A stretch of 64,000 bases of DNA, taken from Candidatus Zhuqueibacterota bacterium. Its GTDB lineage: Bacteria > Zhuqueibacterota > Zhuqueibacteria > Residuimicrobiales > Krinioviventaceae. The stretch is taken from contig JAXHMJ010000001.1 of NCBI GenBank assembly GCA_034521575.1, positions 263,282-327,281 on the forward strand. The letters run 5' to 3'. The notes under the pieces were generated by a model that saw nothing but the letters and a program-made list of their open reading frames with translations, did not search any database and had not been told where the DNA came from. Each line of letters begins with the position of its first letter. Position 1 is the stretch's first letter. Positions 1,010-28,784 of the stretch are shown piece by piece. Made by a program: the position numbers and the translations under genes.

Positions 1010-3016
1010 ATGAAAACCTCACGCTGTTTGCTTTTTGTACTGTTTATTTCGTCAATTTTATCTGCTGCCAGCTCCTATAAATGTGTTTCACCGGACGGTC
1101 GTGTAGAGGTTACAGCCGCATTGACGCAGAACAAACGATTGGTATTCTGGGTTGATTTCAAAGATCGACCGCTCATCCAACAGTCGAATACCGGTTTGGT
1201 TTTCAAAGATATGCCTGAGATGATTTCTAACTGGCAGGTCCTTGATGCCCGGAAAACGGAATATACTCATACCTGGCAGCGTCTTTGGGGCAAACGAAAA
1301 AATGTCATGAATCACTATCGTGAGCTCATTCTTGAACTGCAGGAATCAGAAAAGCCGAACCGACATTTAAACATGCATTTCCGGGTTTATAATGACGGTG
1401 TTGCCTTGCGTTACCATATCCCCAAACAGTCTGCAATTGATTCATTTTCGTTGACGGGGGATTTGACGGAATTTGATTTGGGATTTGATTGCGATGTCTG
1501 GGCGGTCAGCTACGGCGGCTATGCCTCGCATCAGGAGTCTGAATTTTATAAACAGCGAATTGCCGACCTTGATTCTGAAACCGTGTACGGCCTGCCGATG
1601 CTCATTCAACATTCTGATTCCGTGTGGCTGTCGATTGCGGAAGCGGATTTAACGGACTGGGCCGGGATGTATCTCGGGCGCGCCGGAAATGACTATTCAT
1701 TGCGGACTTTGATGGCTCCGCTGCCCGGACATGACCCGGTGTGTGTGCGCTCTGCTGCGCCGCGCGTTTCACCGTGGCGTGTGATCATGATCGGTGAATC
1801 TGCCGGCGATTTTATCGAATCGGATTTAATCGCCAATCTGAATGACCCGTGCGCCATAGAACATACGGACTGGATCAAACCGGGAAAATGCGCCTGGGAC
1901 TGGTGGTGGTGCAACCGCTACGCCCCGGATGCGGAGTTTGAGCTGGGTTCAAATACCCGAACCATGCAGTATTTTATCGACTTTAGTTCAGAAATGAGCT
2001 GGCCGTATCAATTGGTGGACTGGCAGTGGTACGGCGAGCCGTTTCAGCCCACAGAGGATCATCCGAATGCACCGAATCCGGATGTGAATATTACCCGGTC
2101 TACAGATCAAATTGACATCCCCGGCCTGGTCGAGTATGCGCGTGAAAAGAATGTGCGCCTGTGGCTGTGGCTGGAATGGAATCATGCCGACCGGCAGATG
2201 CAGGAAGCGTTTCCGCTGTATGAAAAATGGGGCATTGCCGGCGTCAAAGTGGATTTCATGGCGCGGGATGATCAGGAGATGGTGAATTTTTATCACCGGT
2301 TGGTGAAAAAAGCGGCGGAACATCATTTGTTGGTAAATTTTCACGGCGCTTATAAACCCACCGGATTCAGTCGCACCTACCCGAATCTGTTGACCCGCGA
2401 AGGCGTTCTGGGCAATGAATATAACAAATGGAGTGACCGCATCACCCCGGAACATACTTTGACTCTGGCCTATACACGCGCTATGCTGGGCGAAATGGAT
2501 TTTACGCCTGGCGGATTTGTCAATGTGATGCCGGATTCTTTTGTCACAGAAAATAAAGCACCGTCACCGATGGTCATGGGAACCCGCTGCCGCCAGCTGG
2601 CCATGATGATCGTTTATGAGAGCGCGCTGCAGGTGCTGTGCGATTCGCCCTATAACTATCGCAACAGTCCGGCCGGTCTGGATGTGCTGCGCAATGTGCC
2701 CACCACCTGGGATGACACCAAAGTGCCGGTTTCCAATGTGGATGATTATATTGTGGTTGCCCGTAGAACCGGTAAAGACTGGTATATCGGCGCTCTGACC
2801 GACGGACAAGCCCGGACGGTGGATATTCCGTTGGGATTTCTTCAGGAGGATGTGTCTTATTCGGCTCAAATTTGGCGGGATGCACCGGACGCTGATCGGT
2901 TCCCGCAAAAACTGACAAAAAGAACAATAAATGTGATGAAAGAAACGGTGATTCAGGCTGAGATGGCGCCGGCAGGCGGATTTGTGATGCATATACAGCC
3001 TGAACAGGTGAAATAA
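1010..3016 (+). CDS. glycoside hydrolase family 97 (alpha-glucosidase/alpha-galactosidase, SusB-like)
   Basis: Signal peptide; FRVYNDGVALRY, WIKPGKCAWDWW, GVKVDFM, NFHGAYKPTG-RTYPN--TREGV-G-EY, DFTPG motifs. Confidence 0.9.
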   Translation: MKTSRCLLFVLFISSILSAASSYKCVSPDGRVEVTAALTQNKRLVFWVDFKDRPLIQQSNTGLVFKDMPEMISNWQVLDARKTEYTHTWQRLWGKRKNVMNHYRELILELQESEKPNRHLNMHFRVYNDGVALRYHIPKQSAIDSFSLTGDLTEFDLGFDCDVWAVSYGGYASHQESEFYKQRIADLDSETVYGLPMLIQHSDSVWLSIAEADLTDWAGMYLGRAGNDYSLRTLMAPLPGHDPVCVRSAAPRVSPWRVIMIGESAGDFIESDLIANLNDPCAIEHTDWIKPGKCAWDWWWCNRYAPDAEFELGSNTRTMQYFIDFSSEMSWPYQLVDWQWYGEPFQPTEDHPNAPNPDVNITRSTDQIDIPGLVEYAREKNVRLWLWLEWNHADRQMQEAFPLYEKWGIAGVKVDFMARDDQEMVNFYHRLVKKAAEHHLLVNFHGAYKPTGFSRTYPNLLTREGVLGNEYNKWSDRITPEHTLTLAYTRAMLGEMDFTPGGFVNVMPDSFVTENKAPSPMVMGTRCRQLAMMIVYESALQVLCDSPYNYRNSPAGLDVLRNVPTTWDDTKVPVSNVDDYIVVARRTGKDWYIGALTDGQARTVDIPLGFLQEDVSYSAQIWRDAPDADRFPQKLTKRTINVMKETVIQAEMAPAGGFVMHIQPEQVK

Positions 3017-3055
3017 ATTCGTACTGTTTCTGAATATCTGTGAAATGAGGTTGAA

Positions 3056-4840
3056 ATGAAGATTCATATTCTTTTTCTATTTTTACTGTTTGCTGTAAAT
3101 TTAAGGGCTATGCCGCTCATCAATGTGGATCATCGCGAAACGGTGTCCCTGAACGGCAAGTGGTCCATTGTGATCGATCCCTATCAGATGGGTTATTACG
3201 ATTATCGGTACCAACCCAGCGCCAACGGATTTTTTAAAAATGAAAAACCGCAAAAGCGCTGGGAGCGCGTAGAGTACAGCTTTGATACAGACCTGCAGCT
3301 GAATGTTCCGGGTGACTGGAATTCTCAGAAAGAATCGCTTTATCTGTACGAAGGCACTATCTGGTATCAGAACTATTTTCAGGTGCAGCCCAAACCTGAT
3401 GAACGGCTGTTCCTGTATTTCGGGGCTGTTAATTATCACGCCCGGGTCTATTTGAACGGTGAAAAACTGGGTGAACATATCGGGGGATTCACGCCGTTCC
3501 ATTTCGAGATTACCGATCAGGTCAAAGCGGGGAAAAATGACCTGATCCTCATGGTGGACAATACACGTCATATGCAAGCGGTGCCCACTGTAAATACGGA
3601 CTGGTTCAATTACGGCGGTATCACCCGACGGGTCATGCTGGTGCGCACCCATGAAACATTTATCCGGGATTACAGGATACAACTGGATCCTGAAAACAGT
3701 GAGAAAATGACGGGATTTGTGCAGCTGGACGGTGTACAAAAGAAACAAAAAATAGAAATTCATATTCCGGAGGCAGGCATCCGGGAGGCAACCGAGACAG
3801 ATGCGGATGGCCGGGCTGAAATACAATTCAATCATAATCTGAAACTTTGGTCTCCTGAAACACCAAAATTGTACGATGTGATCATCAAGACAGAAACGTA
3901 TACGCTGTCCGACCGGATCGGATTCCGCTCTATCGGGACCGAGGGAACATCGATACTGCTCAACGGTGAACCCGTCTATTTGCGTGGAATCTGTATTCAC
4001 GAAGAAGCCCCGTATGAAGACGGCTCGCGTGCTTTTTCCGAGGATCATGCGCGGATCTTGCTCGGATGGGCCAAAGATTTGGGCTGTAATTTTGTGCGAC
4101 TGGCGCATTATCCGCACAACGAATGGATGACCCGGGTGGCGGATGAACTGGGTTTGATGCTGTGGTCCGAGATACCGGTGTACTGGACGATACAGTGGAA
4201 GAACCAGCACACCTATGAAAATGCGGAAAATCAATTGACGGAAATGATCAACCGCGACAAAAACCGCGCGTCCGTGATTCTCTGGTCTATGGCCAATGAA
4301 ACGCCGCTGTCGGAAGCGCGGCTCGATTTTCTGACCTCACTGGCGCAACAGGCGCGCGCTCTGGACCCGACTCGGCTGCTCACGGCGGCCATGGAACGGC
4401 ATTACACGGACGAGTATACCCTGTTGATTGATGATCCCTTTGGTGAGGTCGTGGATGTGCTGGGCTGCAACGAATATATCGGCTGGTACGACGGGCTGCC
4501 CGCCAAATGCGATAGTATCACCTGGACGAGCGCCTACAACAAGCCCGTGATCATCAGTGAATTTGGCGCTGGCGCGCTGTACAATATGCATGGAGACTCT
4601 CTGACGCGCTGGTCCGAGGAATTTCAGGCCTCTGTTTATCGACACAATATCGATATGCTGAACAAAGTGGATTTTATTCAGGGCATGACCCCCTGGATTC
4701 TCAAGGATTTTCGCTCCCCGCGCCGCCCCCTGCCACGTATTCAGGATTTCTGGAACCGCAAGGGATTGATTTCGGACCAGGGTCAGAGGAAACTGGCGTT
4801 TTATGAGCTGCAAAAATACTATAAATGTAAAGCCGAATAA
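3056..4840 (+). CDS. GH2 beta-glucuronidase
   Basis: Signal peptide; SLNGKW, DWFNYGGITR, NFVRLAHYP, WSMANE (acid/base), ISEFGAG (nucleophile), and WNRKG (N-x-K motif typical of glucuronidases). Confidence 0.9.
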   Translation: MKIHILFLFLLFAVNLRAMPLINVDHRETVSLNGKWSIVIDPYQMGYYDYRYQPSANGFFKNEKPQKRWERVEYSFDTDLQLNVPGDWNSQKESLYLYEGTIWYQNYFQVQPKPDERLFLYFGAVNYHARVYLNGEKLGEHIGGFTPFHFEITDQVKAGKNDLILMVDNTRHMQAVPTVNTDWFNYGGITRRVMLVRTHETFIRDYRIQLDPENSEKMTGFVQLDGVQKKQKIEIHIPEAGIREATETDADGRAEIQFNHNLKLWSPETPKLYDVIIKTETYTLSDRIGFRSIGTEGTSILLNGEPVYLRGICIHEEAPYEDGSRAFSEDHARILLGWAKDLGCNFVRLAHYPHNEWMTRVADELGLMLWSEIPVYWTIQWKNQHTYENAENQLTEMINRDKNRASVILWSMANETPLSEARLDFLTSLAQQARALDPTRLLTAAMERHYTDEYTLLIDDPFGEVVDVLGCNEYIGWYDGLPAKCDSITWTSAYNKPVIISEFGAGALYNMHGDSLTRWSEEFQASVYRHNIDMLNKVDFIQGMTPWILKDFRSPRRPLPRIQDFWNRKGLISDQGQRKLAFYELQKYYKCKAE

Positions 4841-7203: not shown

Positions 7204-7635
7204 TTACGCCGGTTTTCCGAAACGGTTTGTCAGCGACACGATATCTTCCATGATCATGTAAAGACACGGGACAATGATCAGAATAATGGCCGTTGAAAAA
7301 ATGATCCCGAATCCCAGAGAGATCGCCATGGGGATTAAATAATACGCCTGCCGGGAGGTTTCCAGTATGATCGGTGTGAGTCCGCCAAACGTGGTCAACG
7401 TCGTCAGAATGATCGGTCTGAAACGCCGCAGACCGGCCCGGTGAATGGCTTTAAATGCTGTTGTGTCTTTTCGCTGCCGGTTGGCATAATCGATCATAAT
7501 CAGGGAATCATTGACTACTACGCCGGACAAGGCAATGACCCCCATCAGGCTGATCAGGGAGAGATCGTATCCGAGCAGAATATGTCCGATCACCGCGCCG
7601 ACGATTCCGAACGGAATGCCCACCATCACGATCAA
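7204..7635 (-). pseudogene. RND efflux permease, C-terminal fragment only
   Basis: [18 protein letters not shown] and [18 protein letters not shown] are the last AcrB-type transmembrane helices. About 140 aa remain of a typical ~1000 aa protein. Confidence 0.8.
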
Positions 7636-7985
7636 AGGCTTTTTACATAATCTTTAGCCGGTTCAAATCCGCCTGCCAGCGCCCGGTACAGATCAATCCG
7701 GTATTCGATTAGATCCATTTGCGCTGACAGCCGATCGCGGCGCAGTCGCTGTTCATCGGTCAATGCGGTCAACACATCAATGTAATTGCCGACCCCCTTA
7801 AAGTACTCGATGCGCAATTGTCTGTAGGTCTCAACCGTCAGGGCGATCTGTGTTTCGATGCTTTTTAGCCGCTCGCTTTGTTTACGCTCCCGGATCAGGG
7901 CGGTTTCCACCTCCTGAAACGCCCGCAGGTAACTCTAGAGTCTGGCCGGGCGGACGTCCGAGCAGCAGATTGAATCGATGCTTTA
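7632..7985 (-). pseudogene. TolC/NodT outer membrane efflux protein, C-terminal fragment
   Basis: [22 protein letters not shown]...[11 protein letters not shown]; the upstream FNLLLGRPPGQ piece is in a discontinuous frame; N-terminus missing. Confidence 0.7.
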
Positions 7986-8193
7986 AAACACGCAAAAACA
8001 CAGCGCCTTTGGCTTTAGGGTTATGAGGCACAATTGAACTCGCCGGCAATTCGTACGTATATCCGGATCGATTTTATATATAATGAATGAACGCTCCCGA
8101 AAATTCACACTGCCAAGGGGCTTTGAACTTTCTTTTCCCTTAAAACTTAATTGCTTGCATCTTTCGCAAAAAATCAATAAAATCGGTATATGA

Positions 8194-8552
8194 TAAAACG
8201 CGGGGTAGCGTGTGGGGTTGTGCAGAGGCAGGAATCAACTATATCGGGTGCGGGATGTACGGCAACTTTTGCGGTGTATAATGGTGGAAATTTTTGGCCG
8301 CCTGATACCATTTCATCAATTTCCACACCTTTACCTGAACAAGGCACAGATTTGCGATATATCCGGTCATTCGGGTAAAATGGTTTAAAAATGATGGAGA
8401 TTTTACCTTTTGTTTTTAAGCAGTTGACAACACTCGGTACCCAATAGATGAATTCTCTGAATAAATTTACTTTTGCTATATTTGAAATATAAACAATTGT
8501 CCTTATATTTCCAATACAGCGGTATAAAAACAATAGAATATATACAGACGTT
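8194..8552 (+). pseudogene. array head copy 1: decayed tyrosine recombinase 3' end plus attI-like site
   Basis: [30 protein letters not shown] aligns by eye to [31 protein letters not shown]. Ends TATATACAGAC-GTT directly at the first cassette. No left attC arm is present. Confidence 0.6.
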
Positions 8553-8582
8553 ATGCCCAATTTAACGAACTTATACGATAAT

Positions 8583-9419: not shown

Positions 9420-9432
9420 AAATAAAAACTGG

Positions 9433-9563
9433 GCATAACATCGTATATAAAACATTTGGCAGTCAGTGGGTTATCGAGCGTTTCAGCTCGTATCAAAAGC
9501 ACTTGTAACTTGACAGGAAAGTGCTTCGAATCGCCAAACGTTTCATATACGTAACCGTTAGTA
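9433..9563 (+). repeat. attC site 1
   Basis: R'' GCATAAC, L arms CGTATATAAAAC / TTTCATATACG, R' GTTAGTA. TGGGCATAAC is the reverse complement of the cassette start GTTATGCCCA (8550). Confidence 0.85.
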
Positions 9564-9599
9564 GCCATTTTAAAGAAATACCCCACAAATGAATAAACT

Positions 9600-11105
9600 G
9601 TGAAAATACTGATTGATACAAATATTCTGATTCAATTAGAGGATAACAGAGTTATCGAAAGGGAATTCTCTAAATTTTATAATCTCGCAATCTCAAATGA
9701 TTGTAAGATTTTATATCACCCCGACGCAATTCCTAAAGATATTGAGCGAGACAAAAACACAGAACGAAAAAATGTAATATTATCAAAGCTTGAAAAATAT
9801 CAAAGACTTGAAAATTTTGCAAAACCAACAGAAGAGTTTCTTGAAAGCATCAAAGACGAAAAAATTAATGATAAAATTGATAATAGACAACTATTTCAAT
9901 TATATAAAGGATATGTTGATTTTTTTGTAACTCAGGATAATGGTATTCACTCCAAATCAATGAAATTTGGATTTGAAGATAAGGTGCTGACAGTCAGAGA
10001 TGCACTTGGGATATTAGAAAAACAATTTATAATTGAAATACCACAACACCCAATTTTACGGGAACATAGTATTCGATTCATTGAAAAGCATTTTGATAAA
10101 GAGTTTTTTGACAGCTTGCGTAATGATTATGAAGCTGATAAATTTCAAAACTGGTTAAATAAATGCGTAAAAGAAGATAGAAAATGTTATTCTCTGATAG
10201 TTGAAGATAAATTGCAAGCTCTTTTAATTTATAATTCTGAGAAAGTAGAAGACCATAAGATAGAGGGAATATTCAATAAAGTTCTCAAAATATGTACATT
10301 AAAAGTTTCTAATGATGCTTTCGGCATTAAGTTGGGAGAACTATTCTTAAATAAAATGTTTACATATTGCATCAATCATAAAATAGCGCATTTATACTTA
10401 ACCGTTTATGAAAAACAAGAACAGTTAATATCGTTACTTGAAAAATTTGGGTTTCAAAAACAAGTTTTTACAAATTCACAAGGACTTGGTGAAATCAGAA
10501 TGATAAAGAGTTTAGACAAAAACAAAATTGAAAGTAATGAGAATTTAATGGTAATTCATCCATTTTATCATGACGGAAAAACCATAAATAAATTCGTAAT
10601 ACCAATACGTCCAGAATATTACGGTAGTTTGTTTAAGGATGGGAAATTAAGACCTCCAACTTTATTTGATTCTGCACCTGATAGCGTAAATGAAATTCAA
10701 GGAAATACAATTGTAAAAGCTTATATTTCAAATACCCGAGTTAAGAATTTTAAACAAGGTGATTTACTTTTCTTTTATTCATCCAAGACTAATAAAGCAA
10801 TAGAGCCAATTGGGATTTTGGAATCAGCGACAAAGGTGGATAACTTTGAAGATTTATGGAATATTGTCAAGAAAAAGACAGTATTTTCGCAACAGCAATT
10901 GAATGAAATGTTACAAGAAAAGGGATGGCTACATGTAATTATCTTTAGGCTAATTACATATATGGATAAGAAAATTCGATTGCAGAAAATTAATGAAATT
11001 GACAGCTTCAAAAATAAATTGCAGACTGTCACTAAAATAAATGAAGAAGATTATTTAAGTTTGAAAAATGAAGGATATTTTGACAAGCGTTATATTATCA
11101 ATTAA
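9600..11105 (+). CDS. cassette 2 gene A: PIN nuclease - GNAT - PUA/ASCH-like fusion protein
   Basis: N-terminal ILIDTNILI...IDNRQL...FVTQDNGI (PIN); central LKICTLKVS--AFGIKLGELFL (GNAT); C-terminal FVIPIRPEY...KAYISN...KQGDLLFFYSS (PUA/EVE/ASCH-like). Confidence 0.75.
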   Translation: MKILIDTNILIQLEDNRVIEREFSKFYNLAISNDCKILYHPDAIPKDIERDKNTERKNVILSKLEKYQRLENFAKPTEEFLESIKDEKINDKIDNRQLFQLYKGYVDFFVTQDNGIHSKSMKFGFEDKVLTVRDALGILEKQFIIEIPQHPILREHSIRFIEKHFDKEFFDSLRNDYEADKFQNWLNKCVKEDRKCYSLIVEDKLQALLIYNSEKVEDHKIEGIFNKVLKICTLKVSNDAFGIKLGELFLNKMFTYCINHKIAHLYLTVYEKQEQLISLLEKFGFQKQVFTNSQGLGEIRMIKSLDKNKIESNENLMVIHPFYHDGKTINKFVIPIRPEYYGSLFKDGKLRPPTLFDSAPDSVNEIQGNTIVKAYISNTRVKNFKQGDLLFFYSSKTNKAIEPIGILESATKVDNFEDLWNIVKKKTVFSQQQLNEMLQEKGWLHVIIFRLITYMDKKIRLQKINEIDSFKNKLQTVTKINEEDYLSLKNEGYFDKRYIIN

Positions 11106-11484
11106 ACCGATTTATGCTAAAGCTATTATGTCAGGCATAAAAAAGGTAGAGTTTAGAAAGAAAATATTTAAAAAACCTGTAGACAAGGTGTTTGTATATT
11201 CTTCTTCTCCTGAAAAGAAGATTATTGGATATTTTAGAATAGGAGAAATTGTTGAAGATTCTCCAGAAAGACTTTGGGAAAAATTCAGTAAAGTTGGTGG
11301 AATTAGTAAAAAGGACTTTTTTGAATACTATAAAAATGTAGAAACAGGATTTTCGATAGGCATTGATACATATGAGGAATTTGAAGAAGGTGTTGACCCT
11401 GCAGATTTTTTTGAAAAATTCTGTGCTCCTCAATCATATATATACTTAGAAGAAAAAACGGCTACTAACATTTTGTATAAGTAA
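11068..11484 (+). CDS. cassette 2 gene B: ASCH domain protein
   Basis: VILSIKPIYAKAIMSGIKKVEFRK...VFVYSSSPEKKIIGYF is the ASCH signature; overlaps the end of gene A. Confidence 0.85.
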   Translation: MKDILTSVILSIKPIYAKAIMSGIKKVEFRKKIFKKPVDKVFVYSSSPEKKIIGYFRIGEIVEDSPERLWEKFSKVGGISKKDFFEYYKNVETGFSIGIDTYEEFEEGVDPADFFEKFCAPQSYIYLEEKTATNILYK

Positions 11485-11594
11485 TAGCAGGTGATGTAGT
11501 AAATATCAAGGTTTGTAGCCCGCTCAAACTGCGTAGCGGTTTGACGGGAAAGTGCCACGCAATCTGCCACTACTCATACAATATACCGTTGTGC
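11463..11594 (+). repeat. attC site 2
   Basis: GGCTACTAAC is the reverse complement of GTTAGTAGCC (9557); R' GTTGTGC at 11588. Confidence 0.85.
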
Positions 11595-11633
11595 GTCATG
11601 CTGGGAGACCGCAAACAGTAACTTTTTCAAATT

Positions 11634-12449
11634 ATGATAATTGAAAAAACAACAATTGATAGAATCAAAAAATATCGGACAGATTATTTGAATTCATTAC
11701 CTGAATTTCAGGAATTATTCATAGAGATAATGATAAATAATTCTGATTATTATCTTCTTCAGGTTAATAATGAAGAGATTGGTTATGCAATTAAAAATAA
11801 TGATGGTATTCTGATAGAGTTTTATTTGATTGACAAATTTATCACAGAGAGCAAAGAATTCTTTGGTCAGGTTTTAAAGGATTTATCAATTACAGATATA
11901 TATTGCAAGTCATTTGATTCTCTATTGCTAAGCAATTGTTTATTATGTTCTTTTTACTATTCAGTTCTTGGAGCAATGTATCGTGATTATATTGAGCCGA
12001 CAATTAAAAAGGATTTGGAAATAAAAATGGAAAAAGTAAACCTTTCATCAGTCGGATTATTGCTAATACAAGACGATTCAATAAAGGAACTTTTTGAGAC
12101 AGAACAGCAATTAACTGATTTTATAAAAAATGAGAGTGTTTTTACATTTAATAAAAATGATGAGTTAATTGGATGTGGAATGGTAATTCGGACACATTTG
12201 GATTGGAATTTCTGTGATTTGGGTGTTTGGGTTAATCCTTTAAAAAGAGGAAAATACTTTGGTTCTCAGATTTTATTAAACCTGAGAGAGTTTGCAATAA
12301 ATAACAATATGAAACCGAGTTGTGGATGTGCAATAGAAAATTTGGCATCACAGAAAACTATTGAAAAAAGCGGATTTGTAAGTAGATATAAACTGATAAA
12401 GTTTCAAACAAAAAAAAGCACGAACGCACAACACGCAATAAAAAAATAG
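11634..12449 (+). CDS. cassette 3: GNAT-family acetyltransferase
   Basis: C-terminal DLGVWVNPLKRGKYFGSQIL...CAIENLASQKTIEKSGF. Confidence 0.75.
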   Translation: MIIEKTTIDRIKKYRTDYLNSLPEFQELFIEIMINNSDYYLLQVNNEEIGYAIKNNDGILIEFYLIDKFITESKEFFGQVLKDLSITDIYCKSFDSLLLSNCLLCSFYYSVLGAMYRDYIEPTIKKDLEIKMEKVNLSSVGLLLIQDDSIKELFETEQQLTDFIKNESVFTFNKNDELIGCGMVIRTHLDWNFCDLGVWVNPLKRGKYFGSQILLNLREFAINNNMKPSCGCAIENLASQKTIEKSGFVSRYKLIKFQTKKSTNAQHAIKK

Positions 12450-12556
12450 GGCGTAAAGTACTAAATTTGAACGATATAACAATTAATAAACGGCTTGGTA
12501 ACTTGACAGGTAGGGGCTTTGAAATGCCCTGCGTTTCTTATTGCCAACCGTTATGC
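12426..12556 (+). repeat. attC site 3
   Basis: ACGCACAAC is the reverse complement of GTTGTGCGT (11588); R' GTTATGC at 12550. Confidence 0.8.
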
Positions 12557-12627
12557 CCAATATTAACAGGACACTACAAAGGAACAATTCAAAATGATTA
12601 AAATAATTTTTAAACAAAACTAAATAA

Positions 12628-13467
12628 ATGAATACTGTAATATATTATTTCTCAGGGACAGGTAATTCATATGTTGTTGCAAGGGATATTGCAAAAGAAC
12701 TAAATGGAGTCAAGATACCTATTGCTAATGTAATTGAAGAGGATATCGTTATTCCTGAGTTCGATATAATTGGAATTGTTTTTCCCGTTTATAATGCAGT
12801 TGTTCAAGGGATGCCTGTGATGGTTAAAAAGTTTGCAGAGAAACTAGAAAAAATTAATTCAAAATATATTTTTGTTATTTGTACCTGTTTAGGTTGGTCC
12901 CATACGACTATAACTAATTTTGATAAAATATTAATAGAAAAAGGCGGAAAATTATCTGCCGGTTTTACCGTAATCATGCCAGATAATTCTAGTCCAGTTT
13001 CTACGAGAAAACAAGAAAAGATTTTTAATAATTGGGCAAAGAAAAGAAAAGCTATATCTCAATATGTTAAGAGCAAAAAAAAAGGGAGATATGAAAATCC
13101 AGCTTTTTTGAACTTAATTATGACCCCATTCTTATCAAATGGTAAGAAAAAAACATTATCTCTTTATCGTAATTTAGCCAACGACAATTATTTGTCTTAT
13201 GAAGAAGCGGTAAAATATTCCGACAAAAGTTTTAAAGTAAATAGTAATTGTAATGGATGTGGAATTTGTGCAAATATATGTCCTGCAAATGATATCCAGA
13301 TAATTGAGGGTAGACCAGTTTGGCAAAACCTTTGCGAATCTTGCTTGGCTTGTATCAATTGGTGCCCACAAGAGGCAATAACAGGAGGAATTGTTTCAGT
13401 TGATAAATCCCCAACAGGATATCATCATCCTGACATTAAAATATCGAATATGATATTGAGAAATTGA
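12628..13467 (+). CDS. cassette 4: EFR1-family flavodoxin-fold/4Fe-4S ferredoxin
   Basis: IYYFSGTGNS, GIVFPVY, CNGCGICANICP and CESCLACINWCP. Confidence 0.85.
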   Translation: MNTVIYYFSGTGNSYVVARDIAKELNGVKIPIANVIEEDIVIPEFDIIGIVFPVYNAVVQGMPVMVKKFAEKLEKINSKYIFVICTCLGWSHTTITNFDKILIEKGGKLSAGFTVIMPDNSSPVSTRKQEKIFNNWAKKRKAISQYVKSKKKGRYENPAFLNLIMTPFLSNGKKKTLSLYRNLANDNYLSYEEAVKYSDKSFKVNSNCNGCGICANICPANDIQIIEGRPVWQNLCESCLACINWCPQEAITGGIVSVDKSPTGYHHPDIKISNMILRN

Positions 13468-14330: not shown

Positions 14331-16057
14331 CCTAAATTGATCGATTTATAAGGGCACCAAATAAAAACGGCGCAAAATGTTGCCGGTGCCGTCTTTTTCT
14401 ATTTGTTTTCATCTGAAATAACTTCTTATTACGCAATCAACCTTGCTTTTTGAACTGATTTTGCATTAAAGTCAGAGAATTATCAGTGTAACGGCATACT
14501 TCTCCCATTGTTTAGCTCTTTAATACGATTAATTTTTATTATGTTTTACGTCACAAATGCGGGTTCATACTCCTCAATGAATGACCATAATTTTAAAATC
14601 TTCAGGGAATCATAGACTGTCTGTGTTACCCTTAGTATAATTTTTCCGCCTGTTGTCACAATTTTGGCTGCAAAATCAATCATGATCCGACGAAAGGTAT
14701 TGGGGTAAGCGGTAACTGGTACTGCTTCACAGGGGATGTCCCTTTTATATGCTTCAAAAAGAAAATGGCTGATGATCATCAAATAGTAAAAAACTCTATT
14801 CATACCGAAACGCTTAAATGGTAACTGTTCTCTTCCAGCAAATTCTTTCTGTGATCGGTGTACTAATTCAGCTCTACCTCGACTGTGGTTTAACTCGATA
14901 ATCTTTTCGGCCTTGAGATAATTGCCACTACCAGCATTGATTAGTTTTTCATCCAAGCTCACTGTTTCGGCCTATATTGGTATAGATTACTGAATCCGGT
15001 TGTGCAAAATCAAATAAGAGTTGACCATTTTCCTCAGCTTTCTAAGAGGTAAAAATACAACGGCGAAATGTCTTCCATGATTTGAGGCGATTAGCAAATT
15101 CGACAAAAGTCCATGTCTGTCTATAAGAACGAAAAGCATCATAACTAAGATTGTTAACATATTGTTTAATATCGTTATATATTTTCCCGGCACAAACATA
15201 ATGAATACCAAGGCGTTGTTCAAAGAACCGAAAGTTCTGGTCATCCATAAAACCACTGTCTGTTAGCAGAATGATTGGAACATCTTTATAGCGACGTCGA
15301 ATAGCTTTGACCAGACGCCCCACTGACTTTATAAAGTCGCTGCCATGATTACAATGAACATCTCCGGCTCGGAACAGCGCATCAACAACATAAGGCCCCC
15401 AACTAATTTGCATAGGCTGGAATCCTTTTTTATTTTTATAGGTCACATTTGAGCCTTCACGCTTTTTAGCGCCGTCATTGTCGAAAACTACGCTGTCACC
15501 AAAAAGAATAACTTCTTTGGGTTGTTCAATAATAAGTCGCCAAATAAACATCTCCAACAAAAGAGACCGAAATATCATTTGCCCAACAAAACTGAACTTG
15601 CGAAACATCCTTTTGATTTGATGGGATGTTGCCATTTGTTCCGGGCGATTTTCGAGCACGGCAGCATAGGCTTCATCGTTTTTTCGACGATCAAAAGAAC
15701 AGATTGACATATCCGTACCATCAATAAACCAAGCAAAAAGCTGTTTGACAAACTGACGGTATCCCAGTCCTTTAGAAGAGCCTTTTAAAAAGCTAAAAAC
15801 GTTTTCAAATAGAGAATAGAATCGAATTTGGTCAATATATCTAAGAAAAAACAACAGACCACCACGACCGCTAATTTTATCTTTTGTGATCTCAATTTTT
15901 GATATTTTAGGTTGCGTTGTATCGGTTTTTTTCTGCATATTATGGCTACCTTTTGGGTTTTGTTGTTATTCTTTTTATTGGTTACACAACTAAAATAATA
16001 ACAAACTATTATAAACCCAAAAGGTTTTTTATTTTTTTAAAAACCGCTCAATTTAGG
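14331..16057 (-). mobile_element. IS1380-family insertion sequence, 1727 bp
   Basis: Terminal IRs CCTAAATTGATCGATTT / reverse complement CCTAAATTGAGCGGTTT; 5-bp direct repeat TAATA on both flanks (14326-14330, 16058-16062). Confidence 0.85.
14546..15938 (-). pseudogene. IS1380-type DDE transposase, interrupted
   Basis: KISGRGGL, DSVVFDND, YKNKKGFQP, FRAGDVH, TDSGF, RGRAELVH and KRFGMN motifs; in-frame TAG at 15042 and a +1 shift near 14955. Confidence 0.8.
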
Positions 16058-17568: not shown

Positions 17569-17667
17569 CATGTTTGGAATAACTCAAGACCAAAAATGAA
17601 TTGGAAACAATATGAGTGCGCCAAGCGAAGCTAATATAAGCAAGCCGGACAATCCGGAACGTGCAAA

Positions 17668-17758
17668 GGCTAACCACCAGCACGGAACCATGCGTATGAG
17701 GCGGCAACAAATCATACGAAGCCATGTTGAAGGCAGTTTGTCAGCCATAACGTTAGCC
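17668..17758 (+). repeat. tentative attC site 7
   Basis: GGCTAAC...GTTAGCC with an inner CGTATGA/TCATACG stem; outer L arms pair poorly. Confidence 0.35.
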
Positions 17759-17759
17759 T

Positions 17760-18642
17760 GTGCGTGCCAGCACCCAGACAGGCAAGTTCACCCTGTTAGA
17801 TTTATATTTGATAAGGTGAATCCTGTTGGAATACTGTTATCTAACAGGGTGAAGGTATCGAGTCCCGAAATATTCCATATTGCTTTGGGTTAAAGGTTTC
17901 ATTTCCTGGAAGCCAATATCAAGACAAACGTTAGAGGTGAGTTTGAGTTTGACGAGCCGGGCAAGCGAATGAACGGTTTTTGTGATTTGATCCGTTACGC
18001 GGATGATTTTGTGTGCGTGGTACGGTATGCAAAAGAAGCGCACCGTATAGAACGGGGCTTACAAAACCGATTCACCCAGTATGGACTGGAGATTCATTTG
18101 ACGAAGAGCCGGAACATAAGTTTTGGACGGTTTGAACGGGAGAACGCCAGGAGCCAGAAACGCCGCGCCAATACATTTGATTTTCTGGGATTTACTCACT
18201 ACTGTGACTGGTCGAGGCGAGGCTATTTTAAGGTAGGCCGCAAAACCAGTCGCAAGAAATATACAGCCAAATGCAAGGAGATGAATGCGTGGCTTAAATC
18301 TATCAGGAATTAGATAGCAACGAAAGACTGGTGGAAGATACTGAGAGCCAAATTACGAGGACATTTTCAGTATTATGGAGTGAGTGAGAACTACAGAGGG
18401 ATAGCCAGGTTTTACAGATTTACCCTGAATATGGTGAAGAAATGGTTAAACCGACATAGTCAGAAACGGAAAATGAACTGGAAGAGATTCAAAGAATATC
18501 TTGATCATTATCCGTAGCCCGAACCGAAAATCATGCACAGCTTTTATGGGTCACGTGTAAGGTGAGATAAACTGAGGAGCCGGATGTGGAAAATTCACAA
18601 GTCCGGTTCTGTGAGGGGCATTGAAGTTCCTCACAATAAAGT
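17760..18642 (+). mobile_element. group II intron remnant (internal deletion, truncated in domain VI)
   Basis: GTGCG at 17760; domain I-like stem TTCACCCTGTTAGAT/ATCTAACAGGGTGAA; RT remnant; domain V GAGCCGGATGTGGAAAATTCACAAGTCCGGTTC at 18577-18609; no branch-point 3' end. Confidence 0.75.
17969..18565 (+). pseudogene. group II intron reverse transcriptase/maturase, C-terminal third
   Basis: LIRYADDFV, TFDFLGFTHYC, KLRGHFQYYG, WLNRHSQKR; in-frame TAG stops at 18311 and 18515; RT N-terminus absent. Confidence 0.85.
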
Positions 18643-18998
18643 TAAAACGCGGGGTAGCGTGTGGGATTGTACAGAAGCAGGAATCAACTATATCGGGTGC
18701 GGGAGGTACGATAACTTTTGCGGTATATAATGGTGGAAATTTTTGGCCGCCTGATTCCATTTCATCATTTTCCATACCTTTACCTGAACAAGGCACAGAT
18801 CTGCGATATATCCGGTCATTCGGATGAAATGGTTTAAAAATGATGGAGATTTTACCTTTTTTTTAAGCAGTTGATAACACTCGGTACCCAAAAGATGAAT
18901 TCTCTGAATAAATTTACTTTTGCTAATTGGAAATATAAACAATTTTCCTTATATTTCCAATACAGCGGTATAAAAACAACAGAATATATACAGACGTT
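18643..18998 (+). pseudogene. array head copy 2: decayed tyrosine recombinase 3' end plus attI-like site
   Basis: About 21 differences from 8194-8552 by hand alignment; same EQGTDLRYI; ends TATATACAGAC-GTT at the next cassette. Confidence 0.6.
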
Positions 18999-19018
18999 GG
19001 CAATAATTTAAAGAGAAC

Positions 19019-21352: not shown

Positions 21353-21484
21353 AGCCAACAGCGTATATAACTCATGGCGGGGAAAGTGGTTAATTCAAGC
21401 TTTGAGCATTTAAGGAAGTTTATTTCAAGCCGACAAGAAAGTGCTTTAAAAACCGCCACAAGTCATATACGCAAACCGTTGTAT
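21353..21484 (+). repeat. attC site 9
   Basis: AGCAGCCAAC is the reverse complement of GTTGGCTGCT (20312); arms GCGTATATAACTCATGGCGG / CCGCCACAAGTCATATACGC; R' GTTGTAT at 21478. Confidence 0.88.
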
Positions 21485-21570
21485 GCAAGTGTGCCCCATT
21501 TTTGTAGCCAAGGACTATGCATATTGCGAAAGGAATGCCGATTATGAGAGCAAAGAAGGAGAAGCAAGTT

Positions 21571-24375: not shown

Positions 24376-24410
24376 TTGATAGTAAAAAAAATCGAAATAA
24401 GGAACGAAAA

Positions 24411-26573
24411 ATGAAAAATTATAAAAACATATTATCATTTCAAATCAAACACATTCTATTAAGTATCTGCGTTATTGCACTATTCTCTTGTCAGCAATCA
24501 ACAAAAAATACGGCGGTTCCTGCCGTTCAAAAAATTGATCCAACCGTAGATACTTCAATTTGGTGGGAAAAAAATAACCTTCGACTGATACAAACAAACT
24601 TGCCTGCACCCGAAGGAGCTTTGAATCCTGATTCTTTGGTTAAGGATTTAATCAAGTTTTCGGCAAATACCTTGCTTATAAATGCAGGCGGGATAATGGC
24701 TTTTTATCCTACAAAACTTTTTTTTCATTATAAAAACCCGCATGTTAAAGGCGATATGCTGGGCCGGGTAATTTCTTTATGTCATGAAAATGGAATAAGA
24801 GTTATTGTTCGTTTTGACTTTAGTCGTGCACATAAGAGTTTTTTAAAAGACCATCCCGATTGGTTCTATATATCACCTAAAGGTGAAAGAGTCGATAATT
24901 ACGACATGTTGGTAACCTCTGTGAATGGTGAATACATGCAAAAACATGCATTTGCAATTATTCAGGAAGTACTTGATAATTATCCGATTGATGGTATTTT
25001 TATTAATATGTTTGGTTACAAAACATGGGATTATTATCATGGGGTATATCATGGTATTGATCAAAACCCGAACGATAAAAGACGGTTTAAAGAGTATTCC
25101 GGTGGAATGGAACTACCAACAGTTGAAGATCCGAATGATCCCGTATTTCAAAAGTATGATGAATTCAGAAAGCATACAACCAACGAATTACTAAAAAGGG
25201 TACATGATTTATTAAAGTCGAAAAGACCCAATATTGCTTTATGCACTTATAATGACGATTATGTTGACATAATGCGACATGAAGCCCAGGGTGAACTTCA
25301 CCATCTGCCTTATTTCGCGTACATAGCCTCTGAAAATGTTAATACAGTTGAATCAACCTTTGATGATAAAATATCAAGCAGTTCAAGTATACAACAAATA
25401 ACATTTGGTTCAAGATATCATGCTGTACCGCCCGTAAGAATTCGAAATCGATTATATCAGAATTTGGCTCATGGTTCTGGACTTGATATTAGTTTGATGG
25501 GTGACCTTCGTGATTACGAAGATGAAAGAGGTTTTGATGTAATTAAAAAGGTTTATTCTTATGCCGCCAGGAACGAAAAGTATTACGGTGACTATAAAAG
25601 TATGGCAGAAATTGCCATTATAAAAGAGGCTTACTGGCCAGGCGGGCCTGTTATGGAAGAAATGCGTGGAATTGAGCAAAACCTCAAAGAGGAACATATT
25701 CAATTCGATCTTATTCTTAAAAAACACTTTGCTGTTAGCTACAAAAAACTTAAAAACTATAAAATAATTATACTTGGACATCTCAGGAATTTCAATAAAA
25801 AGGAAATAGAGGCGCTTACCAGGCTCACGAATGATGGTGTAAATGTTATTGCTACTAATCAGGCATTGATGGATACACCTGGCGCATTAAAAGAATTATT
25901 TGGTACAAAAGTTAAGGAATCTTCTTTTGATGCATTTAAATATTATCTGCAATTAAAAGATCAGGCTGTTATTAAAAGGCAGGATAAATTGCATCAGTGT
26001 TTTCTTAAATGTAATTTTATGAAATGTAAATTCTCGGATGAAAGTGAACTTTACCTGCCTTTGCTTGATAAAGGAAGAGAAGGTCCGCCCGAAAGAATTG
26101 GAGGACATGTGCCCACCGGGTGGTTTGGTATTAGTATTTATCAGAAGAACAAATCAAAAATGGTTTATATACCATGGGAAATTGGAAGAATGTATCACAC
26201 CTATGGTTTTTTTGCACATAAAGATATCTTGTTGGATGTGATAGACTATATTAATCCTGAAATCACACAGGATTTTAATACCAATGCTCCTCCACAAGTT
26301 GAAATAACATTTAATAAATTCAGGTATAATTCCGATACAACAGATTCTTATAATAAATACATCATTAATTTGATCAACTTGTCGGGGTTCAATGGCCGCA
26401 GCTATTTTGAGCCTTTAGAAATAGATAATATCAACTTTGAATTTAAAGTGGATATAAAACCTGAAAAAGTATATGGTTTAAAGTCGGACAACACAATAAA
26501 ATTTGAGGGTGACACAATCATTAAATTTACATTAGATCATCTTCAGGATTTTGACGCAATAGTAATTGAATAA
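24411..26573 (+). CDS. cassette 10 gene B: lipoprotein, GHL6-like putative glycoside hydrolase with beta-galactosidase trimerisation-like domain
   Basis: Lipobox LFS-C; LRLIQTNL, NAGGIMAFYPT, GIRVIVRFDFS, HPDWF, YPIDGIFIN. Confidence 0.65.
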   Translation: MKNYKNILSFQIKHILLSICVIALFSCQQSTKNTAVPAVQKIDPTVDTSIWWEKNNLRLIQTNLPAPEGALNPDSLVKDLIKFSANTLLINAGGIMAFYPTKLFFHYKNPHVKGDMLGRVISLCHENGIRVIVRFDFSRAHKSFLKDHPDWFYISPKGERVDNYDMLVTSVNGEYMQKHAFAIIQEVLDNYPIDGIFINMFGYKTWDYYHGVYHGIDQNPNDKRRFKEYSGGMELPTVEDPNDPVFQKYDEFRKHTTNELLKRVHDLLKSKRPNIALCTYNDDYVDIMRHEAQGELHHLPYFAYIASENVNTVESTFDDKISSSSSIQQITFGSRYHAVPPVRIRNRLYQNLAHGSGLDISLMGDLRDYEDERGFDVIKKVYSYAARNEKYYGDYKSMAEIAIIKEAYWPGGPVMEEMRGIEQNLKEEHIQFDLILKKHFAVSYKKLKNYKIIILGHLRNFNKKEIEALTRLTNDGVNVIATNQALMDTPGALKELFGTKVKESSFDAFKYYLQLKDQAVIKRQDKLHQCFLKCNFMKCKFSDESELYLPLLDKGREGPPERIGGHVPTGWFGISIYQKNKSKMVYIPWEIGRMYHTYGFFAHKDILLDVIDYINPEITQDFNTNAPPQVEITFNKFRYNSDTTDSYNKYIINLINLSGFNGRSYFEPLEIDNINFEFKVDIKPEKVYGLKSDNTIKFEGDTIIKFTLDHLQDFDAIVIE

Positions 26574-28762: not shown

Positions 28763-28784
28763 GGCTCCATAAATAAACACCAGC

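What the first reader, a model, noticed from the sequence alone, without database searches (positions are those of the whole stretch)
9560..11588. PIN-GNAT-PUA/ASCH fusion plus ASCH partner as a single cassette: candidate defence or toxin system
Seen: an intact two-gene overlapping operon inside one cassette with a 10-bp R'/R'' match. Gene A has the PIN acidic motifs (DTN, D, TQD), a GNAT core and a PUA-like C-terminal domain; gene B is a stand-alone ASCH domain. Established: PIN domains are RNases, some GNATs are tRNA-acetylating toxins, PUA/ASCH/EVE folds bind nucleic acids or modified bases, and integron cassettes are enriched in toxin-antitoxin and anti-phage genes. Inference: a modified-nucleic-acid sensor coupled to RNase/acetyltransferase effectors, possibly abortive infection. 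I am not aware of an experimental characterisation of this architecture.
Basis: partly seen in the sequence, partly recalled or inferred. Interest (0 to 1): 0.7.

Follow-up and report, generated by a model that had tools for sequence, protein, structure and literature searches.

The report
PIN-GNAT-EVE/ASCH pair as integron cassette
Two overlapping genes in one mobile integron cassette encode a nuclease-acetyltransferase-reader fusion and a small ASCH partner; the pair is real and intact, but it belongs to a widespread family already catalogued as an untested anti-phage or toxin-antitoxin candidate.

Summary
Gene A (9600-11105, 501 aa) and gene B (11068-11484, 138 aa) overlap by 38 nt. They sit in one attC-bounded cassette (9558-11588). 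Its first bases, GTTAGTAGCC, are the exact reverse complement of GGCTACTAAC at 11460-11469.

Domain calls are weak for this sequence alone but solid for the family. PIN Asp6, Asp94 and Asp113 are invariant in 86 relatives at about 32% identity. The GNAT and PUA-like folds are confirmed by structure search. B is closest to ZmASCH.

The architecture is not new. It is PADLOC candidate PDC-M11 (A: E 7.6e-257; B: E 4.4e-49). It is also the (PIN)-GNAT-EVE + ASCH operon of Iyer 2013 and Bell 2020, and a PIN-less coliphage homologue is annotated GevT toxin/GevA antitoxin. I found no published functional test.

B is adjacent to A in 74 of 77 usable genomes, in either gene order.

What this locus adds is evidence that the pair moves as a single integron cassette among Bacteroidota. 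Nucleotide homology to other genomes stops at the recombination points.

Most likely function: a toxin-antidote or abortive-infection module. A speculative version has B erasing the acetyl mark that A writes.

The parts
9430..9566 (+). attC of the preceding cassette. R'' is TGGGCATAAC at 9430-9439. Its composite R' is GTTAGTAGCC at 9557-9566. The recombination point G9557|T9558 is the left boundary of the A/B cassette.
   Evidence: Fold and arm complementarity. TGGGCATAAC pairs with GTTATGCCCA at 8550-8559.
9558..11588 (+). The integron gene cassette (2031 bp, about 30% G+C) that carries both genes.
   Evidence: Exact 10-bp R'/R'' complement. Nucleotide homology to L007, L009, L001 and L010 runs only from about 9553-9588 to about 11551-11592. 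Composition profile. Independent contigs of the source sample break at 11588.
9600..11105 (+). Gene A: PIN-GNAT-EVE/PUA-like fusion protein, 501 aa (PADLOC PDC-M11A).
9600..10031 (+). PIN nuclease domain of A (aa 1-144). Residues D6, D94 and D113 are invariant. T7, N8, E14 and T111 are nearly invariant.
   Evidence: Alignments A3 and A5. PIN_3 hit in 19 of 86 members, best E 8.9e-7. Top PDB profile hit is PIN protein 1O4W, weak at E 0.04. pLDDT 80-90 with alternating beta/alpha elements.
10050..10529 (+). GNAT acetyltransferase domain of A (aa 151-310). It has a conserved G242-x-K-x-G246-E247 loop and the motif LLxKFGF.
   Evidence: Acetyltransf_1 hit in 59 of 86 members, best E 1.6e-10. PDB profile hits Naa50 and PaiA. 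Foldseek hits to PaiA, 4E2A and 8OSP at E about 1e-6.
10566..11081 (+). PUA-like (EVE/ASCH-type) reader domain of A (aa 323-494). It lacks the Lys/Glu octapeptide of catalytic ASCH proteins.
   Evidence: EVE hit in 31 of 86 members. Foldseek to ZmASCH with target TM-score 0.75-0.78. In-register but weak profile match to B.
11068..11105 (+). 38-nt dual-coding overlap. The C-terminus of A (NEGYFDKRYIIN) and the N-terminus of B (MKDILTSVILSI) are both conserved. The same offset is kept across the Bacteroidota-type clade.
11068..11484 (+). Gene B: stand-alone ASCH protein, 138 aa (PADLOC PDC-M11B). It has the GKER octapeptide G23-x-K25-x-x-E28-x-R30, plus Y44, K50 and S123.
11460..11597 (+). attC of this cassette. 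R'' (GGCTACTAAC, 11460-11469) lies inside the last codons of gene B. The recombination G is at 11588, followed by the TTGTGCGTC of the next cassette.
   Evidence: The next cassette's R'' at 12423-12432 matches 9 of 10 bases.

Best explanation
The two genes are one self-contained, horizontally mobile toxin-antidote or abortive-infection-type module of the (PIN)-GNAT-EVE + ASCH family (PADLOC PDC-M11; 'GevTA' in one phage record). Here it is packaged as a single integron gene cassette.

Shown:
- The pair is intact and translationally coupled by a 38-nt overlap.
- It is bounded by attC sites.
- It is shared as a unit with other Bacteroidota genomes.
- A has a PIN domain with a conserved acidic triad, a GNAT fold and a PUA-like reader domain.
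- B is a ZmASCH-type ASCH protein that keeps all residues known to matter in its characterised relatives.
- A and B are almost never found apart.

Inferred:
- A is the effector. Its reader domain docks it on a nucleic acid, most likely tRNA or another RNA, possibly carrying a modified base.
- The GNAT domain acetylates that target and the PIN domain cuts RNA, which stops growth.
- B is the antidote. It is made in step with A and either binds A or acts on the same nucleic acid.
- In the array, the pair would stabilise the cassette by addiction, and when expressed it may abort phage infection.
For: - Family identity: PDC-M11A at E 7.6e-257 over the full length and PDC-M11B at E 4.4e-49.
- Catalytic residues under selection: D6, D94 and D113 are invariant, and T7, N8, E14, T111, G242, G246 and E247 are nearly invariant, in 86 sequences at about 32% identity.
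- Folds: GNAT and ZmASCH-like hits for A. ZmASCH at TM 0.74 for B, and E 4e-18 by sequence profile.
- Coupling: B is adjacent in 74 of 77 usable genome loci. It is downstream in 66 and upstream in 8. Seven of those eight (L074, which has a frameshifted A, was not in the tree) come from Pseudomonadota or Bdellovibrionota, and six of them form one well-supported clade.
- Mobility and patchiness: 1435 cluster representatives. The family occurs in Bacteroidota, Spirochaetota, Chlorobiota, Pseudomonadota, Myxococcota and several archaeal phyla, and the tree conflicts with taxonomy.
- It is also found on plasmids and in prophages.
- Contexts of relatives: a GmrSD/NERD/KAP island; between a type II REase and MTase; a mobilisable element with a relaxase; the rexAB-like slot downstream of cI in a lambdoid phage, annotated GevT toxin/GevA antitoxin, with GevA 42% identical to B.
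Against: - No toxicity, neutralisation or phage phenotype has been published for any member that I could find. The GevT/GevA labels are an unsupported GenBank annotation.
- Neighbouring cassettes here have no PADLOC hits. Some relatives sit among ordinary genes.
- This sequence alone scores below the Pfam cut-offs for PIN, GNAT and EVE.
- The GNAT loop departs from the canonical Q/R-x-x-G-x-G/A motif.
- ZmASCH, a PDC-M11B member, has a neighbour that is not an A homologue. It was purified from E. coli without reported toxicity, so B-type proteins can exist without A.
- A-B binding could not be modelled with the tools available.
Confidence: 0.6

Rival explanations
1. Writer-eraser version (a refinement rather than a contradiction). 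The GNAT domain of A writes an acetyl mark on a nucleobase, for example N4-acetylcytidine on tRNA. B is an enzymatic antidote that removes it. This would be analogous to DarT/DarG, with acetyl in place of ADP-ribose.
For: - B has the invariant GKER octapeptide G23, K25, E28, R30.
- A 2026 preprint reports that all 19 ASCH proteins tested removed ac4C from E. coli tRNA in vitro. These included ZmASCH and TthASCH (2DP9, B's next-best structural hit after ZmASCH).
- In that preprint the Lys/Glu dyad was essential.
- ZmASCH itself hits PDC-M11B at E 3e-29.
- A carries a GNAT domain next to a non-catalytic PUA-like reader.
- Coupling is strict in both gene orders.
Against: - ZmASCH did not lower ac4C when expressed in E. 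coli and was inactive on the free nucleoside.
- The only other reported activity of ZmASCH is ssRNA cleavage.
- No substrate of the GNAT domain is known.
- Characterised GNAT toxins acetylate the amino group of aminoacyl-tRNA, not a base (general knowledge, cited).
- The model does not explain the PIN domain.
Confidence: 0.2
2. Addiction-only module. The pair is a toxin-antitoxin system that merely stabilises the cassette array or other mobile elements and has no role against phages.
For: Toxin-antitoxin cassettes are the commonest recognisable systems in chromosomal integrons and have been shown to stabilise them. The pair occurs on a mobilisable element and on plasmids. No known defence genes sit in adjacent cassettes.
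Against: Relatives are embedded in restriction-modification systems and defence islands. One occupies the cI-adjacent exclusion slot of a lambdoid prophage.
Confidence: 0.15
3. Roles reversed. B (a ZmASCH-type ssRNA ribonuclease) is the toxic effector, and A regulates or neutralises it, for example by acetylation or by sequestering substrate.
For: ZmASCH cleaves ssRNA in a Mg-dependent manner. Its Y47, K53 and S128 correspond to the invariant Y44, K50 and S123 of B.
Against: - ZmASCH was overproduced and purified from E. coli.
- In loci where A is frameshifted, B remains (L045, L081, L082, L074). This pattern is easier to explain if B is harmless.
- The GenBank annotation calls the ASCH partner the antitoxin.
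- A carries two enzyme domains typical of toxins.
Confidence: 0.07
4. Housekeeping or metabolic RNA-modification pair with no conflict role.
For: ASCH and PUA domains are generally linked to RNA metabolism. Some relatives lie among ordinary genes.
Against: - The distribution across bacteria and archaea is patchy, and the tree is incongruent with taxonomy.
- The cassette is about 30% G+C in a chromosome of about 48% G+C.
- The pair is carried on an integron cassette, a prophage, plasmids and a mobilisable element.
Confidence: 0.03

Closest known systems
PADLOC phage defence candidate PDC-M11 (Payne et al. 2024 preprint, 10.1101/2024.01.29.577857)
   Same: Both proteins match the M11A and M11B models over their full length, and the two genes are adjacent.
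   Different: PDC-M11 was defined from copies embedded in BREX, DISARM or type I restriction-modification systems and is untested. This copy is an attC-bounded integron cassette with no recognised defence gene next to it.
(PIN)-GNAT-EVE + ASCH operons (Iyer et al. 2013; Bell, Wolf & Koonin 2020, PMC7641849)
   Same: Identical domain order PIN-GNAT-EVE with an ASCH gene in the same operon. Predicted to be a toxin-antitoxin system.
   Different: There is no AAA_17 ATPase and no HTH fusion on the ASCH protein. The locus is not beside a type I restriction-modification system. The integron-cassette form was not mentioned in the passages I read.
GevT toxin / GevA antitoxin of Escherichia phage PhiR47_2 (GenBank PV340567.1; also in 275 of 5426 complete E. 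coli genomes)
   Same: GevA is 42% identical to B over 121 aa (E 8e-32). GevT aligns with A residues 169-449 at 27% identity (E 2e-23). The gene order is the same and the genes overlap.
   Different: GevT lacks the PIN domain (357 aa against 501 aa). It sits downstream of cI in a lambdoid prophage. I found no paper behind the names.
ZmASCH (ZMO0922; PDB 5GUS, 5GUQ) and other GKER-type ASCH proteins such as TthASCH (2DP9)
   Same: B matches at E 4e-18 by profile and at TM 0.74 by fold. The GKER octapeptide and Y47, K53 and S128 are conserved. ZmASCH hits PDC-M11B.
   Different: The neighbour of ZmASCH is an unrelated 375-aa protein, not a GNAT-EVE protein. Its reported activities (ssRNA cleavage; tRNA ac4C removal in vitro) have not been tested for B.
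GNAT/RHH type II toxin-antitoxin systems (TacAT, AtaRT, KacAT, ItaRT) and VapBC
   Same: They contain a GNAT or a PIN enzyme that acts as a translation-blocking toxin, in a two-gene operon on mobile DNA.
   Different: Those toxins are small single-domain proteins neutralised by an upstream DNA-binding antitoxin (RHH/DUF1778 or VapB). Here PIN and GNAT are fused with a reader domain, and the partner is a downstream ASCH protein.
Defence and toxin-antitoxin cassettes of chromosomal integrons (Darracq et al. 2024 preprint; Kieffer et al. preprint, 'Mobile Integrons Encode Phage Defense Systems')
   Same: A complete multi-gene system held within one cassette of a co-oriented array.
   Different: The host is a Bacteroidota-type genome, not Vibrio or a mobile class 1 integron. 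No integrase is present in the window. This family was not among the systems named in the passages I read.

Membership tests
PADLOC PDC-M11 | Protein matching a PDC-M11A model | tested here: met
   PDLC04417 at E 7.6e-257, residues 1-501 of 501.
PADLOC PDC-M11 | Adjacent protein matching a PDC-M11B model | tested here: met
   PDLC04425 at E 4.4e-49. The genes overlap by 38 nt.
PADLOC PDC-M11 | Anti-phage activity | not testable with these tools
   The family itself is listed as an untested candidate.
(PIN)-GNAT-EVE + ASCH operon | N-terminal PIN domain with conserved acidic residues | tested here: met
   D6, D94 and D113 are invariant in 86 sequences. PIN_3 hit in 19 of 86 members. The PDB profile hit is only weak.
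(PIN)-GNAT-EVE + ASCH operon | Central GNAT fold | tested here: met
   59 of 86 members hit Acetyltransf_1. Foldseek hits to PaiA and other GNATs. PDB profile hits to Naa50 and PaiA.
(PIN)-GNAT-EVE + ASCH operon | C-terminal EVE/PUA-like domain | tested here: met
   EVE hit in 31 of 86 members. Foldseek to ZmASCH with target TM-score about 0.77.
(PIN)-GNAT-EVE + ASCH operon | ASCH protein encoded in the same operon | tested here: met
   ASCH above the Pfam cut-off. B is adjacent to A in 74 of 77 usable loci.
(PIN)-GNAT-EVE + ASCH operon | Frequent (not obligatory) neighbours: type I restriction-modification or other defence genes, or an AAA_17 ATPase | tested here: not met
   Neighbouring cassettes have no PADLOC hits. 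Such neighbours are seen in relatives L003 and L091.
GevTA (GenBank annotation) | Homology of both partners | tested here: met
   B against GevA: 42% identity, E 8e-32. A residues 169-449 against GevT: 27% identity, E 2e-23. A has an extra PIN domain.
GevTA (GenBank annotation) | Toxicity of the GNAT-EVE partner and its neutralisation by the ASCH partner | not testable with these tools
   No publication found.
GNAT/RHH type II toxin-antitoxin systems (TacAT, AtaRT, KacAT) | Small stand-alone GNAT toxin with an upstream RHH/DUF1778 antitoxin | tested here: not met
   A is a 501-aa three-domain fusion. The partner is a downstream ASCH protein. There is no RHH or DUF1778 hit.
VapBC | Stand-alone PIN toxin with an upstream VapB-type antitoxin | tested here: not met
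   PIN is the N-terminal domain of a fusion protein. No gene lies between the cassette start (9558) and gene A (9600).
Integron gene cassette | attC: an imperfect palindrome with AAC...GTT ends | tested here: met
   Arm scores of 14.5 and 13.0, against 0 hits at that threshold in shuffled sequence. Covarying inner stem.
Integron gene cassette | The first bases of the cassette are complementary to the R'' of its own attC | tested here: met
   Exact match over 10 of 10 bases, unique in the window. The same holds for five neighbouring cassettes.
Integron gene cassette | The unit is shared between genomes with different neighbours, with homology ending at the recombination points | tested here: met
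   L007 aligns over 9556-11591 and L009 over 9555-11592. Nothing aligns outside the cassette.
Integron gene cassette | Integron integrase and attI at the head of the array | tested here: not met
   No tyrosine recombinase domain in any large ORF of the window. The ORF in the 8174-8560 head module has no Pfam hit. The array may be a cluster of attC sites that lacks an integrase.
GKER-type ASCH proteins (ZmASCH, TthASCH) | ASCH beta-barrel fold, the G-x-K-x-x-E-x-R octapeptide, and the cleft residues Tyr, Lys and Ser | tested here: met
   TM 0.74 to 5GUS. G23, K25, E28, R30, Y44, K50 and S123 are invariant, aligned to ZmASCH and matched to the mutagenesis data.
GKER-type ASCH proteins (ZmASCH, TthASCH) | ssRNA cleavage or tRNA ac4C deacetylase activity | not testable with these tools
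   Needs biochemistry.

The most novel reading that the evidence does not exclude
The pair is a reversible nucleic-acid acetylation toxin-antidote system. The GNAT domain of A, guided by its reader domain, writes an acetyl mark (for example ac4C) on tRNA or another nucleic acid. The PIN domain cleaves the marked or unmarked target. B is an enzymatic eraser that removes the mark. This would be an acetyl counterpart of DarTG, spread between genomes as an integron cassette.
Probability: 0.2. Interest if true: 0.75.

Novelty: new member of a known kind. Interest (0 to 1): 0.32.

Why it matters
The family is large, with 1435 representatives of 50%-identity clusters, and it spans bacteria and archaea. 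It has been flagged several times as a likely immune or toxin-antitoxin module, yet I found no published test. It combines two toxin-type enzymes with two PUA-like modules, so its mechanism may be new chemistry, namely acetylation of nucleic acid in a conflict system.

This locus does not change that picture. It adds two useful facts. First, the pair travels as one compact 2-kb integron cassette among marine and saline Bacteroidota, which extends the idea of integrons as stores of defence genes beyond Vibrio and clinical integrons. Second, the cassette is a natural minimal unit, with defined ends, that could be cloned and tested directly.

Tried and rejected
- My first two attC scans were too strict and missed the known sites. 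A relaxed arm-complementarity scan with shuffle controls worked.
- Rfam at gathering thresholds returned only a group II intron hit and nothing at the attC sites.
A1 worked.
- I tested whether the neighbour of ZmASCH is a GNAT-EVE protein, which would have tied the only biochemistry directly to this system. It is not: no PADLOC hit and hhalign probability 0.4%.
- Profile comparison of B with the C-terminal domain of A is in register but not significant (probability 2%). Paralogy is suggested by fold only.
- A PDB profile search with the PIN region gave PIN proteins as the first and third hits, but at E 0.04 and 0.15.
- The sigma-70 promoter scan was below the shuffle expectation and is uninformative for a Bacteroidota-type host.
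- Literature searches for GevT, GevA and 'GNAT-EVE' found no experimental paper. Iyer et al. 2013 could not be opened.
- No RNA runs hold the cassette, so co-transcription could not be checked.
- Modelling the A-B complex was not possible with the single-chain predictor.
Full report
**What is there**

Two ORFs on the + strand fill the interval. Gene A runs 9600-11105 (GTG start, 501 aa) and gene B runs 11068-11484 (ATG, 138 aa). They overlap by 38 nt in different frames. Homologues start at the same residues, so both starts are correct.

In the overlap, the conserved C-terminus of A (NEGYFDKRYIIN) and the conserved N-terminus of B (MKDILTSVILSI) are read from the same bases. The same offset is kept in essentially every Bacteroidota-type relative. 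This argues for translational coupling.

**The cassette**

GTTAGTAGCC at 9557-9566 is the reverse complement of GGCTACTAAC at 11460-11469. These are the only two copies in the window, with none expected by chance. This is the signature of an integron cassette cut between G and TT of its own attC.

- The R'' box lies inside the last codons of gene B.
- Both flanking attC sites are imperfect palindromes of about 130 nt with AAC...GTT ends. Their arm scores were never reached in shuffled sequence.
- Across seven attC sites of the array, 8 of 10 inner-stem pairs show compensatory changes.
- The same start/R'' complementarity links the neighbouring cassettes: 8550/9430, 11588/12423 (9 of 10), 12550/13481, 18998/20188, 20312/21350 and 21478/28782 (9 of 10).
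- The array (about 8.2-30 kb) has 30-40% G+C, against 45-53% in the flanks. The A/B cassette is about 30%.
- No integrase was found in the window. The rest of the genome could not be searched.

**Mobility as a unit**

Nucleotide homology between the window and the closest genomes is confined to the cassette.

| Locus | Source | Window interval aligned |
|---|---|---|
| L007 | Cryomorphaceae MAG | 9556-11591 |
| L009 | Winogradskyella epiphytica | 9555-11592 |
| L010 | Marinilabiliaceae MAG | 9588-11589 |

Nothing aligns in the 2.5 kb before or the 3.4 kb after the cassette.

- Seven of the 69 loci analysed show attC evidence, each in one or both of two forms. The first is an exact 10-bp R'/R'' bracket around the pair: L009, L013, L014, L019, L024 and L029 (L009 with the identical 10-mer). 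The second is an attC directly after B: L007, L009, L021, L024 and L029.
- A more sensitive scan adds L005 and L013 as loci with an attC directly after B.
- L001 and L002 also carry an attC after B, by eye.
- All of these fall in the Flavobacteriia-centred crown of the tree. The window sits in a 100/99-supported clade with L001, L007 and L008.
- Logan contigs from a salt-pan metagenome that holds 85% of the cassette's sampled words break at 9431-9436, 11588 and 12554. They continue differently from there, which suggests the array is polymorphic in that sample.

**Domains of A**

For this sequence alone Pfam is weak: GNAT E 9e-4, EVE 1.4e-3, PIN_3 0.16. The family settles the question.

- In 86 relatives at about 32% identity, 59 hit Acetyltransf_1 (best E 1.6e-10), 31 hit EVE and 19 hit PIN_3 (best E 8.9e-7).
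- D6, D94 and D113 are invariant. T7, N8, E14, T111, G242, G246 and E247 are nearly invariant.
- The AlphaFold model (pLDDT 73.9) has three domains separated by low-confidence linkers at residues 145-150 and 311-322.
- Foldseek finds GNAT enzymes (PaiA, 4E2A, 8OSP) for the middle domain. For the C-terminal domain it finds ZmASCH with target TM-score about 0.77.
- The PIN domain has only weak PDB profile support: 1O4W at E 0.04.
- The C-terminal domain lacks the Lys/Glu octapeptide of catalytic ASCH proteins, so I read it as a reader domain.

**Gene B**

- ASCH scores above the Pfam cut-off.
- By profile, B matches ZmASCH (5GUS, 5GUQ) at E 4e-18 over its whole length. By fold the TM-score is 0.74. 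The next hits are TthASCH (2DP9), the TRIP4 ASCH domain and YqfB.
- B keeps the octapeptide G23-x-K25-x-x-E28-x-R30, and Y44, K50 and S123, all invariant.
- Y44, K50 and S123 correspond to ZmASCH Tyr47, Lys53 and Ser128. Mutating those residues reduces nucleic-acid binding, and for Tyr47 also ssRNA cleavage.
- A 2026 preprint reports that all 19 ASCH proteins tested, ZmASCH and TthASCH among them, remove ac4C from E. coli tRNA in vitro. The Lys/Glu dyad of the octapeptide was essential. ZmASCH was inactive in cells and on the free nucleoside.
- ZmASCH hits PDC-M11B at E 3e-29, but its own neighbour is an unrelated 375-aa protein.

**It is a known candidate**

- PADLOC matches A to PDC-M11A (E 7.6e-257, full length) and B to PDC-M11B (E 4.4e-49).
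- PDC systems are 145 untested candidates picked because copies are embedded in BREX, DISARM or type I restriction-modification systems.
- Bell, Wolf & Koonin (2020), crediting Iyer et al. (2013), describe PIN-GNAT-EVE proteins whose operons almost always encode an ASCH protein. [quoted passage not shown] The authors state that none of the modules had been characterised.
- In Escherichia phage PhiR47_2, the PIN-less homologues sit just downstream of cI and are annotated 'GevT toxin' and 'GevA antitoxin'. GevA is 42% identical to B, and GevT is 27% identical to A residues 169-449. The locus is present in 275 of 5426 complete E. coli genomes.
- I found no paper behind these names.
- The two papers I opened that mention PDC-M11 only list it.

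**Distribution and coupling**

- A has 1435 representatives among 50%-identity clusters at E <= 1e-3.
- Seventy-nine genome loci span Bacteroidota, Spirochaetota, Chlorobiota, Pseudomonadota, Myxococcota, Omnitrophota and archaea, including Promethearchaeota. The tree conflicts with taxonomy.
- B is adjacent in 74 of 77 loci that have room for it. It is downstream in 66 and upstream in 8. Seven of those eight (L074, which has a frameshifted A, was not in the tree) come from Pseudomonadota or Bdellovibrionota, and six of them form one well-supported clade.
- Only one locus with an intact A lacks a detectable B (L069).
- Contexts of relatives: a GmrSD/helicase/NERD/KAP island; between a type II REase and MTase; a mobilisable element with a relaxase in a gut Culturomica; rhizobial and haloarchaeal plasmids; the archaeal provirus psiM100.
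- Some contexts are unremarkable.

**Mechanism**

The best-supported reading is a toxin-antidote or abortive-infection module. A is the effector: its reader domain docks it on a nucleic acid, the GNAT domain acetylates, and the PIN domain cleaves RNA. B is the co-translated antidote. As a cassette, the pair would also stabilise the array by addiction.

All of the activity steps are inferred. What is shown is the architecture, the conservation of catalytic residues, the obligate pairing and the mobility.

A more specific and more novel version is that B enzymatically erases the acetyl mark that A writes. This rests on the new ASCH deacetylase data and the invariant Lys/Glu dyad of B, and I give it about 0.2. 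Rivals are listed with their tests: addiction only, B as the nuclease toxin, and a housekeeping role.

**Verdict**

Earlier notes of this scan, read after I had reached the same identification, report the same family in many genomes. None of those I saw describes it as a true attC-bounded integron cassette. That is the modest new element here.

Noticed in passing
window 21479-28908: A 7.4-kb cassette bounded by attC sites (R'/R'' match 9 of 10). It holds three large ORFs with Kelch/DUF5060, GHL6/GHL10 and GH-like domains. This is unusually large cargo for an integron cassette.
   Followed up: partly
window 8194-8568 and 18643-19014: A module of about 375 bp is duplicated at 89-96% identity. 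Each copy ends exactly at a cassette GTT and heads a sub-array. Its 128-aa ORF on the minus strand has no Pfam hit.
   Followed up: partly
window 17649-17971: Rfam group II intron D1-D4-6 hit (62.9 bits, E 2.9e-15) on the + strand inside the cassette array. Only short ORFs follow it, so it is probably a decayed intron.
   Followed up: no
window 14546-15938 (- strand): A DDE_Tnp_1_4 transposase is split into two ORFs (298 aa and 138 aa) inside the array. It is probably a frameshifted insertion-sequence copy.
   Followed up: no
window 7204-7910 (- strand): Only the C-terminal end of an AcrB-type RND pump is present (profile positions 890-1020), right at the left border of the array. In L001 a related array lies next to an RND pump gene (ACR_tran), which runs off the end of the fetched locus, and its membrane-fusion protein. 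The pump gene here may have been truncated by the array or by a rearrangement.
   Followed up: no
window 10265: One Logan contig of run X1 (same sample as X2) lacks one base here, in a GGG run. That would frameshift gene A. X2 does not show it. At about 5x depth this cannot be told apart from an assembly error.
   Followed up: no
L092 4825-5952: The gene just upstream of ZmASCH (ZMO0922) in Zymomonas mobilis encodes a 375-aa protein with no Pfam or PADLOC hit and no similarity to gene A. It may be a different partner for a PDC-M11B-type ASCH protein.
   Followed up: partly
L091 7901-11704: In a Prevotellaceae MAG the PIN-GNAT-EVE/ASCH pair is inserted between a type II restriction enzyme (E 2e-85) and its D12-class methylase (E 7e-111). 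The whole block sits between two GTPase genes that look like era and der (a reading from their Pfam domains).
   Followed up: partly
L095 2501-4346 (Methanothermobacter provirus psiM100): ORFD (492 aa) is a full-length homologue of gene A, and the overlapping ORF5 (129 aa) sits in the position of B. They lie at 'inserted fragment IFa', which the record annotates across 1054-3846 of the locus and which covers most of ORFD.
   Followed up: no
L014: A contig binned as Algicola (Gammaproteobacteria) carries a cassette copy that nests among Flavobacteriaceae copies in the tree. This is either cross-phylum cassette transfer or a mis-binned contig.
   Followed up: no
window 11634-13467: The next two cassettes encode a two-domain GNAT (Acetyltransf_19 plus Acetyltransf_1/3) and a flavodoxin/4Fe-4S protein. 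The preceding cassette encodes a DinB/MDMPI_N-like protein. None has a PADLOC hit.
   Followed up: partly
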